Source: Camelus dromedarius
Lineage: Eukaryota
Direction: 5' to 3'
Assembly: GCF_036321535.1 (NCBI RefSeq)
Contig: NC_087436.1
Span: 75,456,001 to 75,520,000 of the forward strand
Length of the DNA: 64,000 bases
A model generated the notes under the pieces. That model was not told where the DNA came from and ran no database searches. It worked only from the letters and a program-made list of their open reading frames with translations. Below, piece after piece: positions 1-63,354 of this stretch (the stretch's first letter is position 1; each line of letters opens with the position of its first letter). The translations under genes and the position numbers were made by a program.

Positions 1-631
1 AAGCAGGACAGTGTGTGCAGGAAACAGGGGTCACAGAGAAGCTGTGGGGAGCCACACCCCACTGGGGGTGCAGTGTTCAGAATTAAGGGTTAGGAAATGA
101 TTTGTCCTTGAGGCTGAAGGTTGAAAGAAGTGTGTTGGTTTGCAGACTCTTTGGAGAAGTCAGGGAGAAGTGGGGATCCAGGAGGAGGGTAAGACGTGAG
201 ACCAGATGAGGGAAGCTGGGGCTTTCTGATGCTTGACCAACTTGAGTGGGTGAAAGTCTCAGGACTGTGAGATTTGCCAAGCCTAGGGAAAGGGGAGCGC
301 CAGATGATGGGGTCTGCACTTTATCCCATCAGGGGTAAAGATGAGCCATAGGGTAGTTTTAAAGCAGAGAATAATAATGGGTAACACTCTTAAAAGAGGC
401 TTAGTGTTTAAAACTCAGCCAAATAGTATGGCAGTTTTCAACCCATGAGAAATAGGAATTTGGGTTCGGAAATCTCTGGGAAGATGAATTTCACTATAGT
501 CTGTGGTATCTTCACCAGTTCAATTCAAAGTCATCCGAGCAGCCTTTGAAAGGACAGAAACAGGTCTCTGTGAGATCTGTGCTATACTTGGGTTCAAAGT
601 TACTTCAAAATGGGCACATTTGACTTCAATT

Positions 632-1843
632 GTGTCCCATATTTTCACTGCAAACATTTTTGTTGTGAGCAGTTTTACTCCACAACTAGTTGGCATTGGA
701 CAATTTTGCTGTAAAAGATAAAATAGAAACAAAAGCAAAATAAAAGAAGAACATTAAAAGAACATACTGAAACATGAAAAATTAACAAAATTTTAAAAAG
801 ATTTTATTGTGTAAAATACAAAAAGCATTTGAACATATTTAAAATGCGTGTAGATTAATGGTTATAGTTGTATCAGGTGTATCTTAGAGAAAGCGGTGAT
901 ACTTCCTTTCTCAAATCCATCGTTAAGGATTCAGGATCTAACATCCAGCATAAGTTCTTTACGATATTAAAAAAAAGATCTGCTGTTAAGTCTGTTCAGA
1001 TTCCCCTGGAAGTAAAACAAACAGACGAGGGATGCTGTTATTTCCCATCAGTACACACAGTGTGTATAACTGGTGGTGCACATCTGGACTACATTGAAAC
1101 GTTCCAGCACATGCCCAGTCCTTACACTCCACCAAGTCATCTAAGTCAGAGTCTGCACCAAACCCCAAATTCTGTCTACATCATGTCCTCCACTATCAAA
1201 TGGTGAAAAATCTTCACCATTTTCAAGAAACTTATCAGGAGTCGGGTAATGATTTCTTTCTGAGGAGACAGGAGAAGCTTGATTCTTCTTTTGCCTCCAG
1301 TTTCTAATATTATCTGATAAATTTGGTAAAGACGGCGTTAGAGAACATGACATTGAATCTAAATTAGCCAAAGAATTGAACATTGATGCTCTGGAAGACT
1401 GTTGCGAATTAGTAGCCACCTCTTTGATACTCACCGTAGCTTGGTACTTTTGGTTTTGATGGGTGGAACGAATGACTGTGCTCAACAAAGGATTTGCAAA
1501 ATGATATGTTATTTTCTAGTATAGCATGCAGTCTGAGTTTATGCTCTCCTGTTTCACACTTCCAGTAAGTTTTCTCATCATCACATTTCATATCAAGTCA
1601 ATCAATATACATAGCTGTTATCATCTACTATTTTAAGCCCGCCACATCTACTCGTCACTGTGTAGACCATTATGCGGTTTACTAAGATTTCCATAATAAA
1701 AAAATGAGAGTATCTTGTCAACGGAGAAGGGAAACCAAACTGTCAACCAGTTATTTTATCTTTTACAGCTGAATTGTCCTAGGGCCAATTCATTGTGTGG
1801 CAAAAACTGCTTCTGGCAAAGATTCTTATGAAATACCTAGAAC
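632..1843 (-). mobile_element. Fossil Mutator/MULE-superfamily DNA transposon (internally deleted) with terminal inverted repeats
   Basis: Inverted repeat core 698-725 vs 1752-1779 matches 26/28, with weaker similarity extending out to ~632 and ~1843. The interior holds a disrupted FLYWCH + MULE transposase frame on the minus strand. Confidence 0.85.
860..1670 (-). pseudogene. Disrupted MULE transposase: N-terminal FLYWCH zinc finger plus first half of the DDE domain
   Basis: From ATG 1670, across frameshifts and stops: MVYTVTSRCGGLKIVDDNSYVY / KCDDEKTYWKCET..KLRLH..EHSHS / LPNLSDNIRNWRQK..PDKFLENGEDFSPFDSG..DRI / DWACAGTFQCSPDVHHQLYTLCVL..IPRLFVLLPGESEQT / LDPESLTMD-FEKGSITAFSKI. These match the MULE motifs W-x-x-DGTF..QLYT and DFE. 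Confidence 0.85.
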
Positions 1844-2610
1844 AAGATTCAGTATGGATTCAGTATGCTGGTAGGTGGGAAATTGGAAAAAAATTTCTGA
1901 GACCTTTCTACACTGAGCCCTGCTTAAAATTCTCTGCTTATGACTATTACTTTCCTTTCCAGTTTGTTGAGAAATATCAGTTTCATCCATTTATGTTTAT
2001 TTAATACCCTCCTGTTCATAATCCAAAACAATCTGTGAGCTCCTTACATGTGCTTCACTTGTGCCCCATGCCTAGTGCACAGCTGAACATGCAACAGCCA
2101 CTCAGTGTGTTGCTTGATCTGCCTTAAAAATATCGAACTACTTACTCAAGTCCCTGTTCCTAATGAGCGTCAACATAGATAGTAGCAAAGTAAAGTGTGA
2201 GGTGCTGACAGTATCCGGTGGCAAAAGCTGCTCTTAGGATGCTGGTTGGTGCTAGTCCAAGTGCCGTTTTCCTGTGAGCGCGCTCTGATGGTTTCTGCTA
2301 GTTAACAGCAAAGAGAAACTTCAAGTCAGGGAGCAGCTTGTCCCCTGAGGTTTCTGTCCAATCGATTGTTTTTACTCCGGGTATCGACAGCTCTCTGCTG
2401 CATGCCCTTGTCTGTAGCTACGTGGGTTGACTGTGGTGACATGGATTACTGCCTCTCAGGGTTTAATCAGTGCCCAGCAAGCACCATGTATGCCTGTGAC
2501 TTTCCTTTGCCTTTTAATTGTTCAGGCTGTGGGGCTGTTGATGGTGCCGCTTTCGTGTGCTCATACCTTGACGGATCAGTTTTTAACTCAGAGCTTATGC
2601 TTCTTTGCAG

Positions 2611-2718
2611 GATGCCACCATTTGGAAGCCTGATTCATGCCAGAACTGCCGTTGCCATGGTGATATTGTTATCTGCAAACCTGCTGTTTGCAGAAACCCT
2701 CAGTGTGCCTTTGAGAAG
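2611..2718 (+). CDS. FRAS1: FRAS1 exon 3 equivalent, 108 nt, VWC1 (DATIWKPDSCQNCRCHGDIVICKPAVCRNPQCAFEK)
   Basis: ttctttgcag|GAT acceptor, AAG|gtatgg donor; peptide recognised as the FRAS1 N-terminal VWC repeat; phase 0-0. Confidence 0.97.
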
Positions 2719-14039: not shown

Positions 14040-14900
14040 TAAGATATATAAATGATTCATTAGATATTTTAAACAGTACTTTGCTCTCTGATGACAAAAG
14101 TGAATATTTGTTTATTGGAGAAAATTTGTGAAAATAGAAAAGTATGCAAGCAGAGAAAAATCCACTAGTAATCTCTAAACTATGAAAACCACTATTGTTC
14201 CCTCGGTTTTCTTGAAGGGTGGTGGCAATGAAGATGGATGGTTGGATAGGTAGATAGAGATTTATGTTTTTACATATTGTATACTGTGTATCCAGTTTAT
14301 GTCTTGCTTTTTTACATGACATTATGTTGTAAGTAGTTCCCCCACATACTCTTGGAGAACATGATTTCCTATTATTAGATATTTGGGTTATTTCCAATAT
14401 TCACTGAAAGATTTCCAATTTCGCTATAAAGAACAATGAGATGGAATTCTTTGTATTTAAACTTTCTTGTGTATCATTGATCATTTTTCTTCAGATAACT
14501 TCTTAAAAGTGAAATTAGCAGATCAAAGCATCTAAAGATTTTGTGTATTGAAGCTGTGACATCTATGGTCATTAAAATTCAATTTTAAGTTGTCTGTGTC
14601 TAATGATAAACCCAGGGGGAATATTACAGTTAGTACAGCTTCTTTTCAAGTCTGATTACCTTGGGTAGGCCCCAGCTGGCTGAGTTATTCCAGGTGCTAA
14701 AGTGAGAGAAAGCTTTGTGTAGGAGAATCCCACTCCACTGCAGCTCCCCTAAAAATAACTACTATGAATTTTAAACAGTTCCCATATCTGATATTAAAAG
14801 ATATTATCTAATTTTATTTTAATTAATATTTTTTGCAGTTAGTAAAGCTGAATATTCTATAAACTTATTGCTGCATTTTCCATTGGGATTTTTTTCCTTT
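14040..14900 (-). mobile_element. Ancient degraded L1M-type fragment, apparently resuming at ~19710-19950
   Basis: Degenerate L1 3' motifs (gatatttgggttatttccaat, ttcttaaaagtgaaattagcagatcaaag). Confidence 0.5.
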
Positions 14901-14901
14901 T

Positions 14902-15913
14902 AGTATTGTCATCTGCAAATAGTGATTTTTAAATTTTTCCCTTGCAATTTGGATCCCTTTTATTTCTTTTTCTTACCTGATCACTGTGGCAAGGACTTCC
15001 AAAATTGTGCTGAATAAAAGTGATGACAGTGGGCATTCTTATCTTGTTCCTGACTTTAGAGAAGAATTTCAGCTTCTTACCACTGAGTGTGATGTTAGCT
15101 GTGGGTTTGTTGTATACGGCTGTTATTATGTTGAAGTATGTTCCTCTGTACCCACTTTGTTGACAGTTGTTGTCATAAATGAATATAGGATTTTGTCAGA
15201 TGCTTTTTCTGCATCTTTTGAGATGATCATGTGATTTTTATCCTTTGCTCTGTTAACATGGTGTATCACATTGATTGATTTGTGGATATTGAACCATCTT
15301 GCATCCCTAGAATAAATCCCACCTGATTCTGACATATGATCCTTTCAATGTATTGAATTCTGTTTGCTATTTCTTTTTTTTTTTTTTTTTAGGATTTTTA
15401 CATCTATTTTATCCCAGATATTATCTTGTAATTTTGTTTTTTTGTAGTGTCTTTGTCTGGCTTCCCTTGTATGTGAGGCATTGTTTCTCTCTTCTTGCTT
15501 TTAAAATTCTCTCCTTATCTTTTGTTATATTAATGACATGTTTTGGTGTTAATCTCTTTGAGTTCATCTTGTTTGGGACTATTTCCTTCCCCAGCTTAGG
15601 GAAGTTTTCAACCATTATTTCTTCAAATAACTTTTCTATACCTTTCTCTCTTCTCCTTCTGCAACCCCTGTAGTGTGAATGTTAGTATGCTTGATGTTGT
15701 CTCAGAGGTCCCTTAAGCTATCCTCATTTTTTTTTTTAATTCTTTTTTTCTTTTTGCTGTAATGATTAGGTGATTTCCACTAGTCTGTCTTCCATGTTGC
15801 TTATGTATTCTTTTGTGTTATCTGCTGTTGACTCCTTCTGGTGTTGTTGTTGTTGTTGTTTTTCATTTTAGTTGTTGTATCCTTCAGTTCTCATTGTTTC
15901 TTTTTTATATTTT
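14902..15913 (-). mobile_element. Older antisense L1, part 1: ORF2 RT-region fragment (14902-15460) fused by internal deletion to ORF1 (15461-15913)
   Basis: Minus-strand peptides [36 protein letters not shown] (ORF2) and ENFPKLGKE..TPKHVINITKDKERILKARREKQCLTYKG (ORF1). Confidence 0.9.
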
Positions 15914-16344
15914 AGAATTCGGCAAGGTAGCAGGTTACAAGATTAATGTACAAAAATCAGTTGCATTTCTTTACACTAATGATGAATCAACAGGAAAAGA
16001 AAGTAAAGAAACAATCCCCTTTAAAATAGCACCCAAAGTAATAAAATACCTAGGAATAAATCTAACCAAGGAGGTGAAAGACTTAAACATGGAGAACTAT
16101 AAAACACTGATGAAGGAAATTAAAGAAGACTTAAAAAAATGGAAAGATATCCCATGCTTCTGGATTAGAAGAATCAATATTGTTAAAATGGTCATACCGC
16201 CCAAGGCAATCTACAGATTTAATGCAATCCCTAGCAAATTACCCAAGACATATTTCACAGAACTAGAACAAATCTTAATAAAATTTATATGGAACTACAA
16301 AAGACCTAGAATTGCCAAAGCATTACTGAAGAAAAAGAAAGAGG
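15914..16344 (+). mobile_element. Younger L1 ORF2 segment A (post-RT region)
   Basis: [33 protein letters not shown]; colinear with 17610-18040. Confidence 0.95.
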
Positions 16345-18734
16345 ATACAGGCCTTCCTCAAAAAAAAGAGAACAATCTCAAATAAACAATTTAACCCACC
16401 AGCTGAATGAACTAGAAAAAGAAGAACAAAAAAACCCAAAAGGCAGCAGAAGGAAGGAAATTATAACAATTGGGGAGGAAATAAATAAAATACAGATTAA
16501 AAAGACCATAGAAAAATTCAATCAAACCAAAAGCTGGTTTTTTGAAAAAGTAAATAAAATCGATAAAACCTCTAGCCAAACTCACAAAGAAGAAAAAAGA
16601 GGGAGCACAAATTAGCAAAATAAGAAAGGATAATGGAGAAATTATAACAGATTAAATAGAAATACAGAATATCATACGAGAATATTAGGAAAAACTATAT
16701 GGAACCAAACTGGATAACCTAGAGGAAATGGACAAGTTTCTGGAAACATACTGTCCACCAAGACTGAATCAAGAAGAAACTGACCACTTGAACAAACCGA
16801 TCACTAGAAATGAAATCGAAATAGCAATAAAAAACCTCCCTACAAGTAAAAGTCCAGGACTGGACGGCTTCACTGGGAAATTCTACCAAACATACAAAGA
16901 AGAACTCATACCAGTCCTTCTCAGACTCTCAGAAGATCAAAAAGGAGGGAATACTCCCAAACTCCTTCTATGAAGCCACCATCACCCTGATACCAAAACC
17001 AGGCACAGACACTATCAAAAAAGAGAATAATAGGCCAATATCACTGATGAACACAGACGCCAAAATCCTCACCAAAATATTAGCAAATAGAATCCAACAA
17101 CACATAAAAAAGATTATACATCATGACCAAGTGGGGTTCATCCCAGGGACACAAGGGTGGTTCAACATATGCAAATCAATCAATGTAATACATCACATCA
17201 ACAAGAGAAAGGACAAAAACCACATGATCATCTCAATAGATGCAGAAAAAGCTTTTGATAAAATTCAACACCCATTTATGATAAAAACTGTCACCAAAGC
17301 AAGTGTAGAGGGAACATATCTCAACATAATAAAAGCTATATATGACAAACCTACAGCCAGCATAGTACTCAATGGTGAAAAACTCATAAGCTTCCCACTA
17401 AAATCTGGGACAAGACAAGGATGCCTACTATCACCACTCCTATTCAACATAGTCTTGGAAGTCCTAGCCACAGCAATCAGACAAGAGAGAGAAATAAAAG
17501 GGATCCAAATTGGAAAAGAAGAGGTTAAAGTGTCACTATATGCCAACAACATGTTACTATATATAGAAAACCCTAAAAGGTCCACACAAAAACTACTAGA
17601 GCTGATTGAAGAATTCAGCAAGGTAGCAGGTTACAAGATTAACGTTCAAAAATCAGTTGCGTTTCTTTACACTAATGATGAATCAACAGAAAGAGAAAGT
17701 AAAGAAACAATCCCCTTTAAAATAGCACCCAAAGTAATAAAATACCTAGGAATAAATCTAACCAAGGAGGTGAAAGAATTATATGTAGAAAACTATAAAC
17801 CATTGATGAAGGAAATTAAAGAAGACTTTAAAAAATGGAAAGATATTCCATGCTCTTGGATTGGAATAATCAATATTGTTAAAATGGTCACACTGCCCAA
17901 GGCAATCTACAGATTTAATGCAATCCCTATCCAATTACCCAGGACATATTTCACAGAACTAGAACAAATCATAATAAAATTCATATGGAACCATCAAAGA
18001 CCTAGAATTCCCAAAGCATTACTGAAGAGAAAGAAAGAGGCTGGAGGAATAACTCCCCCAGACTTCAGACAATACTATAGAGCTACAGTCGTCAAGACAG
18101 CATGGTATTGGTACAAAAACAGACATATGGACCAACGGAACAGAATAGAGAGCCCAGAAATGAACCCACAAACTTTTGGTCAACTAATCTTCGACAAAGG
18201 AGGCAAGAATATACAATGAAATAAAGACAGTTTCTTCAGCAAATGGTGTTGGGAAAACTGGACGGCAGCATGTAAACAGTGAAGCTAGAACACTCCCTTA
18301 CACCACATACAAAAATCAACTCAAAATGGATCAAAGACTTAAACATAAGACAAGATACAATAAACCTCCCAGAAGAAAATATAGGCAAAACATTATCTGA
18401 CAGACATCTCAAAAATGTTCTTCTAGAGCAGCCTACCCAAGCAATAGAAATAAAAGCAAGAATAAACAAATGGGACCTAATGAAACTTACAAGCTTCTGC
18501 ACAGCAAAGGAAACCATAAGTAAAACAAAACAACAACCTACGGAATGGGAGAAAATTTTTGCAAACGATGAAACTGACAAAAGCTTGATTTCCAGAATAT
18601 ATAAGCAGCTCTTATGACTTAATAAGAAAGAAACAAACAACCCAATCCAAAAATGGGCAGAAGACCTAAACAAGCAATTCTCCAAGGAAGAAATACAAAT
18701 GATCAGTAAGCAAATGAAAAAAATGCTCAATATC
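16345..18734 (+). mobile_element. Younger L1 ORF2 segment B (Z region, RT, downstream region); disrupted, with no endonuclease domain, 3'UTR or poly(A)
   Basis: ORFs 16728-16973, 17047-18219 and 18279-18617 are L1 ORF2p ([37 protein letters not shown]); YADD reads YANN; frameshifts and stops present. Confidence 0.97.
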
Positions 18735-28255: not shown

Positions 28256-28412
28256 TTTTTTTAACTTTTTTATTTTATTTATTTTTTGAAGGGGGGAGGT
28301 AATTAGGTTTATTTATTTGTTTAATTATTTATTGTAATGGAGGTACTGGGTATTGAACCCATGACCTCATGCATGCTAAGCACATGCTCTACCACTGAGC
28401 TATACCCTCCCC
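28256..28412 (-). mobile_element. tRNA-derived SINE, camelid Vic-1-like
   Basis: Minus strand ggggagggtatagctcagtggtagag (A box) and gggttcaatacccagtacctcca (B box), A-rich tail; tggttctta repeated at 28246-28254 and 28417-28425 as the probable TSD core. Confidence 0.9.
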
Positions 28413-63221: not shown

Positions 63222-63354
63222 GGGGGAGGCTATACCTCAGGGTAGAGTACATGCTTAGTGTGCATGCATGAAGTCCTGGGTTCAATCCCCAGTAGCTCCA
63301 TGAAAATAAATACATAAACCGAATTACCTCCCCGAAAAAACAAATAAACAAAAA
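63222..63354 (+). mobile_element. tRNA-derived SINE, camelid Vic-1-like
   Basis: gggggaggctatacctcagggtagag (A box), gggttcaatccccagtagctcca (B box), A-rich tail; TSD aggtaattactg at 63211-63222 and 63356-63367. Confidence 0.92.

What the first reader, a model, noticed from the sequence alone, without database searches (positions are those of the whole stretch)
632..1843. Fossil Mutator/MULE transposon with TIRs and a readable FLYWCH-DDE transposase in a mammalian intron
Seen: three small minus-strand ORFs (1409-1591, 1141-1488, 986-1168) plus flanking frames join into one protein with FLYWCH features (SRxGxxxxxxxxYVY..YWKC..HSH) and MULE core motifs. The first catalytic Asp of DGTF reads Ala (GCT, 1106-1108); the second survives as MD-FE with a 1-nt loss near 914. 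Coding similarity stops at ~860, before the CxxH motif and the catalytic Glu, so this is an internal-deletion derivative. A 26/28 inverted repeat (698-725/1752-1779) brackets it, and a weak possible TSD (gacttcaat 622-630 vs gattcagt 1846-1853) flanks it. Known: FLYWCH + MULE architecture typifies animal Mutator lineages such as Phantom; mammals have few described MULE families (Ricksha group). Inference: these TIRs do not resemble the Ricksha termini I recall, so this may be a poorly described family or one whose transposase is unannotated.
Basis: partly seen in the sequence, partly recalled or inferred. Interest (0 to 1): 0.75.

Follow-up and report, generated by a model that had tools for sequence, protein, structure and literature searches.

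The report
Dead Mutator transposon with prawn relatives
This is a broken, internally deleted copy of a repeated Mutator-type jumping gene in an intron of what is likely a camel-family genome; the most similar intact enzymes found come from prawns, so it likely reached mammals by an ancient jump between species.

Summary
Confirmed. Window 632-1843 is a dead FLYWCH + MULE (Phantom-type Mutator) DNA transposon. Read through six frameshifts and two stops, it aligns over about 270 residues at 48% identity with an intact 467-aa prawn transposase. It is multi-copy: 62-66 non-identical contig pieces per run lie only on the element, many with other deletions. New here: the deletion is in frame. It removes about 190 codons (CxxH and the catalytic Glu) but keeps the last residues and the stop, and other copies share the junction. 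The TSD is unresolved (5 of 9). Ricksha or Dfam membership could not be tested. The closest known items are Phantom elements, including a horse Phantom report I could not read. Human MULE protein fossils are already in print. This scan earlier noted two similar mammalian elements on other DNA with 'whipworm' relatives; none of my species-named hits was a whipworm. Verdict: likely a new member of a known kind, of moderate interest.

The parts
632..725 (.). TIR downstream of the transposase, about 94 bp, built of 15-16 bp sub-repeats; the outer end is uncertain by a few bases
698..725 (.). inner TIR core, 26 of 28 identical to 1752-1779 on the other strand
726..838 (-). AT-rich subterminal region after the stop codon, shared with other copies
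   Evidence: depth above single copy at 697-909 and records 2-4
839..865 (-). last 8 residues and native stop codon (841-839) of the transposase; matches residues 460-467 of P0157
860..869 (-). in-frame deletion junction, about residue 270 joined to about residue 461; about 190 codons (570 bp) lost, including CxxH (273-276) and the catalytic Glu (384)
   Evidence: same junction in P0012/P0155; spanned by records 3 and 4
866..1117 (-). N-terminal half of the MULE DDE domain; first Asp mutated to Ala (1108-1106), second Asp at about 917-915 with a 1-nt loss
   Evidence: local MULE profile 67.8 bits against a best of 4.8 in 500 shuffles
1118..1469 (-). linker region of the transposase (about residues 66-187)
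   Evidence: tblastn 41-49% identity to P0001, P0002, P0004
1470..1670 (-). start codon (1670-1668) and FLYWCH zinc-finger region, frameshifted near 1604
   Evidence: local FLYWCH profile 35.6 bits against a best of 7.8 in 500 shuffles; alignment starts at Met1 of P0157
1671..1751 (-). 5' leader and subterminal region; the most widely shared part among other copies
   Evidence: summed depth 268-420 at 1691-1761 against 7-12 on the flank
1752..1843 (.). TIR upstream of the transposase, about 92 bp; other copies cover it up to about 1832
622..630 (+). candidate left TSD copy (unproven)
   Evidence: 5 of 9 matches with 1845-1853, chance 6%
1845..1853 (+). candidate right TSD copy (unproven), overlapped by a perfect 11-bp tandem duplication at 1846-1867
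2611..2718 (+). host exon encoding part of a VWC domain (FRAS1 by recall); the element lies upstream in the intron, antisense to it
   Evidence: Pfam PF00093 E 5e-6, 27.1 bits, just under the 27.6 cut-off

Best explanation
The stretch 632-1843 is a dead, internally deleted copy of a multi-copy FLYWCH + MULE DNA transposon, which was likely moved by cut-and-paste transposition using enzyme supplied by full-length copies, and whose lineage likely entered mammals by horizontal transfer tens of millions of years ago. Shown: TIRs, one intronless transposase frame from Met1 to the native stop, an in-frame loss of about 190 codons, other copies in the same genomes, and a deletion junction shared by some of them. 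Inferred from Mutator/Phantom biology: a full-length element of about 1.8 kb made a 467-aa-type enzyme whose FLYWCH finger bound the TIR sub-repeats and whose D-D-E centre cut and pasted the element with a duplication of about 9 bp. Repair of an excision gap, probably using the short Ile-Thr match present on both sides, made the deletion form. That form lacked the Glu, kept both TIRs, and was copied in trans. This copy then decayed neutrally in the intron.
For: phmmer of one frame over 1.84 billion proteins: 252 hits at E<=0.001, best 6.7e-21. Of 20 top hits scanned, 6 carry both Pfam FLYWCH and MULE above cut-off. The X-joined read-through gives 48% identity over 273 columns to P0157 of Macrobrachium rosenbergii, E 3e-78. 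Local profiles built from 24 intact proteins: FLYWCH 35.6 bits and MULE 67.8 bits against best shuffles of 7.8 and 4.8; the C-terminal profile gives no hit, as expected for a deletion. Contigs of 3 runs: 82, 79 and 87 records laid, of which 62, 63 and 66 are under 99% alike; depth is single-copy at 200-696 and 16-420 in nearly all bins of 697-1832; 15 listed joints mark other internal deletions. Records 3 (759-935) and 4 (812-941) span the junction without a large gap, and P0012/P0155 carry it in one open frame. Neither TIR has a CG dinucleotide left, as expected of old methylated DNA. For transfer: majority residues of the fossil-like pieces match P0157 at 74% of 160 columns (biased upward), while the vertebrate proteins found (newts) are about 27-30% identical to P0157.
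Against: No TSD is shown, and no second copy with flanks could be fetched. The exact ends are unverified: no contig was laid beyond 1832. The raw-read run laid nothing and gave no test. The trees do not resolve a sister group: the fossil sits in a polytomy of 14 rows with prawn, copepod and unnamed proteins (87/97), and my 9 pre-chosen fossil-like rows are not one clade (3 changes, 73 columns). The age rests on protein identity (110 of 147 to the majority of the others), on paralogue identities of 80-89% censored at 80%, and on a recalled substitution rate.
Confidence: 0.85

Rival explanations
1. It is a member or subfamily of Ricksha (Ricksha_0, _a, _b, _c), the known MuDR family of placental mammals, and is already annotated.
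For: Ricksha is the only MuDR listed for human in Repbase (PMC5753468) and has long TIRs (79 bp; PMC1431705). RepeatMasker had already covered 374 of 437 human MULE-MuDR protein fossils (PMC9004415). Ancestral MuDR sequence is reported in four bats (PMC4971623).
Against: The TIR here is about 92-94 bp. By recall only, from no call, the Ricksha sub-repeat unit is a different sequence. Camelid paralogues are still 80-89% alike over 120-310 bp, which suggests a younger age than a placental-wide family.
Confidence: 0.12
2. It is the same family as the horse Phantom element reported by Marquez and Pritham 2010, or an uncurated Dfam/Zoonomia consensus: described or deposited, but obscure.
For: PMC6446971 says a horse MULE with a FLYWCH alignment was reported. 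Horse and camelids are both Laurasiatheria (established knowledge), and the inferred age would allow sharing.
Against: PMC6446971 found no MULE transposase in the horse sequence provided, whereas here it is plainly readable. The paper itself is not held, so nothing could be compared.
Confidence: 0.35
3. The in-frame deletion form spread partly because it made a truncated protein (FLYWCH plus half the catalytic domain) that bound TIRs and damped transposition, as KP elements do for Drosophila P elements (recalled analogy).
For: The junction is in frame, keeps the start and the native stop, and is shared by other copies.
Against: One deletion in three is in frame by chance, and microhomology between like codons favours in-frame joins. 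Many other deletion forms exist. This copy has six frameshifts and two stops. There are no expression or selection data.
Confidence: 0.12
4. It is a processed remnant of a domesticated FLYWCH host gene, or a one-off contaminating or assembly-derived insert, not a transposon family.
For: Mammals have FLYWCH-domain genes derived from Mutator transposases (PMC10027918).
Against: TIRs bracket the frame, there is a MULE core, there are dozens of other copies, the locus is held at 0.99 in 20 runs of two organisms and 7 studies (14 rows flagged as possible sources, 6 not), and one contig runs unbroken from the flank into the element (200-1511).
Confidence: 0.01

Closest known systems
Phantom subclass of Mutator-like elements (Marquez and Pritham 2010, not held; described in PMC3169594 and as group 20 in PMC6446971)
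   Same: Single transposase with an N-terminal FLYWCH finger (PF04500) and a MULE domain (PF10551), about 470 aa; TIRs with internal sub-repeats; many non-autonomous deletion forms, as in the nematode Tm1 family.
   Different: Hosts listed for group 20 are invertebrates, a tunicate and an ichnovirus. The TSD of 8-10 bp is not shown here. Placement in group 20 was not tested because their alignment file could not be read.
Unnamed 467-aa FLYWCH-MULE proteins of palaemonid prawns (XP_066969100.1 Macrobrachium rosenbergii, XP_068250292.1 Palaemon carinicauda); also Caligus QQP42000.1, Lepeophtheirus and Octopus proteins
   Same: Colinear from Met1 to residue 270 at 42-48% identity; for P0157 also the final residues before the stop.
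   Different: They are intact, and their TIRs could not be fetched. The Palaemon and Caligus MULEs tabulated in PMC13359780 have other sizes (1136 and 496 aa). The tree does not make prawns the sister group.
Ricksha / Ricksha_0 / Ricksha_a (Repbase, Dfam; MuDR of placental mammals)
   Same: Mammalian MuDR with long TIRs and non-autonomous derivatives.
   Different: 79-bp TIRs (PMC1431705) against about 93 bp here. Ricksha proper carries an ERVL/MLT2B fragment, whereas this element's interior is transposase plus short leaders. Sequence comparison was not possible.
Horse (Equus caballus) Phantom report, cited in PMC6446971
   Same: A FLYWCH-bearing Mutator in a laurasiatherian mammal.
   Different: No transposase could be detected in it by Dupeyron et al.; sequence not seen by me.

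Membership tests
MULE / Mutator superfamily | MULE-type DDE transposase domain (PF10551) | tested here: met
   No direct Pfam hit on single frames; met through homologues and a local profile, 67.8 bits against 4.8
MULE / Mutator superfamily | Complete D-D-E triad with CxxH | tested here: not met
   First Asp is Ala; CxxH and Glu lie in the deleted part. Expected for a non-autonomous derivative; intact relatives have them
MULE / Mutator superfamily | Terminal inverted repeats, often long | tested here: met
   26/28 core, extension to about 93 bp
MULE / Mutator superfamily | TSD of about 8-11 bp | tested here: inconclusive
   5 of 9 in the symmetric register, chance 6%; no flanked second copy
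MULE / Mutator superfamily | Dispersed multi-copy family with deletion derivatives | tested here: met
Phantom | N-terminal FLYWCH zinc finger ahead of the MULE domain | tested here: met
   local profile 35.6 bits against 7.8; the 75-aa relative P0015 passes the Pfam cut-off
Phantom | TIRs with internal sub-repeats | tested here: met
   read from the sequence and from loose ends of other copies; judged by eye, no statistic
Phantom | Falls in group 20 of the Dupeyron phylogeny | not testable with these tools
   their fasta files are unreadable here
Ricksha | DNA similarity to the Ricksha consensus and TIR | not testable with these tools
   no Dfam or Repbase library
Ricksha | 79-bp TIR | tested here: inconclusive
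   about 92-94 bp here, ends uncertain
Ricksha (proper) | Captured ERVL 3' end with MLT2B LTR | tested here: not met
   839-1670 is transposase; only about 110 and 80 bp remain between it and the TIRs

The most novel reading that the evidence does not exclude
An unnamed second Mutator invasion of mammals, separate from Ricksha: a Phantom-type element from an aquatic-invertebrate lineage (prawns, copepods, octopus) entered a laurasiatherian or early artiodactyl ancestor by horizontal transfer and spread as several deletion subfamilies, one of them an in-frame form able to encode a DNA-binding, catalytically dead protein. It would be direct evidence of a mammalian MULE transposase, against the 2019 view that vertebrate MULEs are mis-identified, and it would have close intact relatives available for comparison.
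Probability: 0.35. Interest if true: 0.6.

Novelty: new member of a known kind. Interest (0 to 1): 0.38.

Why it matters
The 2019 survey of Mutator evolution (PMC6446971, section 6, read) could not detect MULE transposases in vertebrates and asked for the placental reports to be re-evaluated. This locus gives a readable mammalian FLYWCH-MULE frame with intact relatives at 48% identity, so that question can be tested. A 2018 review counts fewer than 20 documented horizontal TE transfers into mammals (PMC5857283, passage seen), so a further one with aquatic-invertebrate relatives would add to a short list. The locus itself has no sign of function, and MULE fossils in the human genome are already counted (PMC9004415), which caps the surprise.

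Tried and rejected
Pfam on three stop-masked frames and the three ORFs: no FLYWCH or MULE hit; only DUF5133 far below cut-off. Word-based protein search with the 85-aa core piece: 6 candidates, none significant. No host genome is held, so copy number, TSDs and orthologues could not be read from an assembly. TIR pattern in the window: only the two known arms. TIR pattern in metagenome contigs: one hit, L001, in 24% GC DNA with no transposase similarity, rejected as chance. Viral contigs with P0157: no locus. Raw-read run X24 laid nothing. ESM Atlas confirmed FLYWCH/MULE look-alikes in eukaryotes but named no closer taxon. Cluster look-ups gave no organism for any fossil-like fragment. The whipworm link from earlier scan notes: 0 of 8 species-named proteins and 0 of 23 were whipworm or mammal; most hits are unnamed, so whipworm relatives are not excluded, and those notes may concern another family. 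Sequence look-ups in earlier findings returned nothing. The bacterial promoter scan does not apply to a mammal and was ignored. The 11-bp tandem duplication was considered as TSD evidence and rejected: it is perfect, so likely much younger than the insertion. Paper searches found no description of a non-Ricksha MULE family in camelids or other Laurasiatheria; the library lacks most subscription papers, and Dfam and Repbase entries are not searched.

Full report
Observation. A scan of the whole window for 28-mer inverted pairs with at most two mismatches within 3 kb found only this pair and one long inverted pair of repeats at about 14.9-17.5 kb. Gapped alignment extends the similarity to about 632 and 1843; the outer part alone is reached by 7 of 2000 shuffles. 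By eye each arm consists of 15-16 bp sub-repeats, and neither arm has a CG dinucleotide left. The proposed TSD gives 5 of 9 matches in the symmetric register (622-630 against 1845-1853), which 6% of random pairs reach; none of the registers scanned is convincing.

Protein. Pfam hit none of 6 single-frame queries with FLYWCH or MULE, and a word-based search with the core piece found nothing. A full phmmer scan with one stop-masked frame gave 252 proteins at E<=0.001, of which the best 150 were listed. The top hit is a 453-aa Caligus protein with both Pfam domains; tblastn lays its residues 1-234 on 1670-974 in four pieces at 42-50% identity, and none of the 150 proteins hit the window elsewhere. 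Two profile searches (32 hits of 4140 candidates; 91 of 8000 scored) added closer relatives. Read through with X at six frameshifts, the fossil aligns at 48% to P0157 of Macrobrachium rosenbergii, P0186 of Palaemon carinicauda and unnamed P0188, and at 42% to the sea-louse proteins. Profiles built from 24 intact proteins, cut at the Pfam boundaries, score it at 35.6 bits (FLYWCH) and 67.8 bits (MULE) against best shuffles of 7.8 and 4.8; the C-terminal profile has no hit. In P0157 numbering the catalytic residues are D190, D252 and E384, with CxxH at 273-276. D190 reads Ala here and Asp in 7 of the 9 fragments covering it.

The deletion. After residue about 270 the frame continues for eight more residues and a stop at 841-839. 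These match the extreme C-terminus of P0157 (6 of 9 identical, E 0.056 on its own). The ending is conserved among intact relatives, and MAFFT placed the same tail of P0012 and P0155 on it. So about 190 codons are missing in frame, with an Ile-Thr-like match on both sides of the join. A full-length element would be about 1.8 kb (inference). An earlier count gave E389 and 872-846 for these; the values here, replace them.

Other copies. The locus is held at 0.99 of its words in 20 of 24 listed runs, from two organisms and 7 studies; 14 of the 20 are flagged as possible sources of the window. Laying 200-2300 at 80% likeness on four runs gave 82, 79 and 87 records in three contig sets and none in the raw-read run. 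Of these, 62, 63 and 66 are under 99% alike. Summed depth is 7-12 on the left flank and up to 696, 16-87 over nearly all of 697-1690 (one bin of one run drops to 8), 268-420 at 1691-1761 and 82-102 at 1762-1832. The tool warns that depth is no copy number, so I read this as dozens of related loci, a lower bound because of the 80% cut. Fifteen listed joints (25 more not shown) mark other internal deletions. Two listed records from other loci (759-935 and 812-941) cross the junction with 11 and 2 gap letters, so this deletion form was itself copied. Two to three contigs per run have the base missing here at 915. The longest paralogous pieces are 80-89% alike.

Host and age. The fossil matches the majority of the other fragments at 110 of 147 residues, roughly 12% DNA divergence, which at a recalled mammalian neutral rate means about 50-90 million years. 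This is a rough inference; the fragments carry no organism names.

Relationships. On 73 core columns the fossil falls in a star-like group of 12 rows with 10 other fragments and one intact unnamed protein, P0158 (80/67, not strong); my 9 pre-chosen rows do not form a clade. On 265 columns it sits in an unresolved group of 14 rows with prawn, copepod and unnamed proteins (87/97). Prawns are therefore closest by identity and path length, not a shown donor. The only vertebrate proteins found are from newts, at 27-30% to P0157. A patchy distribution with a close invertebrate relative is best explained by horizontal transfer, but route and donor are open.

How it works. Shown: anatomy, decay, multiple copies, shared junction. 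From established Mutator/Phantom biology (PMC3169594, passages seen; PMC6446971, section 6 part 1 and passages): a FLYWCH finger plus a DDE domain acting on the TIRs, with TSDs of about 9 bp, and non-autonomous forms moved in trans. Inferred: this form arose by gap repair, lacked the Glu, and was moved by full-length copies; it is now inert. A repressor role for the in-frame product is possible but unsupported.

What is known. Human MuDR in Repbase is Ricksha, Ricksha_0 and Ricksha_a (PMC5753468, passages). Ricksha has 79-bp TIRs and an ERVL fragment (PMC1431705 and PMC3531169, passages). PMC6446971 found no vertebrate MULE transposase and doubted the horse and placental reports; its three readable supplements contain neither Ricksha nor Equus, and two fasta files could not be read. 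PMC9004415 (passage) counts 437 human MULE-MuDR protein fossils, 374 already masked; its supplement was listed but not read. PMC4971623, PMC5857283, PMC10027918 and PMC13359780 were seen as passages, the last with two supplement rows. Marquez and Pritham 2010 is not held, and it may bear directly on novelty. Ten paper searches found no account of this family. Two earlier notes of this scan describe similar non-Ricksha mammalian MULEs on other genomes with whipworm relatives; I could not link them by sequence, and no named whipworm protein came up here.

Verdict. A real Phantom-like MULE fossil of a multi-copy family. It works like Phantom; membership in Ricksha is untested and looks unlikely. 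Most likely a new or obscure member of a known kind. Interest 0.38.

Noticed in passing
window 1846-1867: A perfect 11-bp tandem duplication 2-3 bases outside the right end. It is the only perfect, non-simple tandem duplication with a unit of 9-13 bp in the 64-kb window and overlaps the candidate TSD.
   Followed up: partly
proteins P0253, P0257-P0259, P0263: Newts (Lissotriton helveticus, Pleurodeles waltl) have annotated 386-579 aa proteins with both FLYWCH and MULE domains, distant from this family. They are further vertebrate MULE transposase candidates.
   Followed up: no
protein P0158: An intact 466-aa transposase from an unnamed 2.6-kb Logan contig groups with the fossil-like fragments in the core tree, although overall it is less identical than the prawn proteins.
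   Followed up: partly
protein P0226 and cluster: A 60-aa fossil-like fragment with 12 members seen on about 78 ENA/Logan contigs, the pattern expected of one locus of a commonly sampled host animal.
   Followed up: no
window about 14900-17900: Two long repeats in opposite orientation (arms 79-80% complementary) plus a 300-nt direct repeat at 92% (15909-16208, 17605-17904), likely rearranged L1 pieces by recall.
   Followed up: no
window 28273-28409 and 63226-63353: Two tRNA-derived SINE copies in opposite orientation, called as tRNA-Ala and tRNA-Thr by ARAGORN; camelid type by recall.
   Followed up: partly
proteins P0200-P0204, P0207, P0214 and others: Many unnamed ENA proteins on large contigs (0.1-3 Mb) are 74-92% identical to the prawn transposase, so that lineage is widespread or recently active in at least one further eukaryote.
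   Followed up: no
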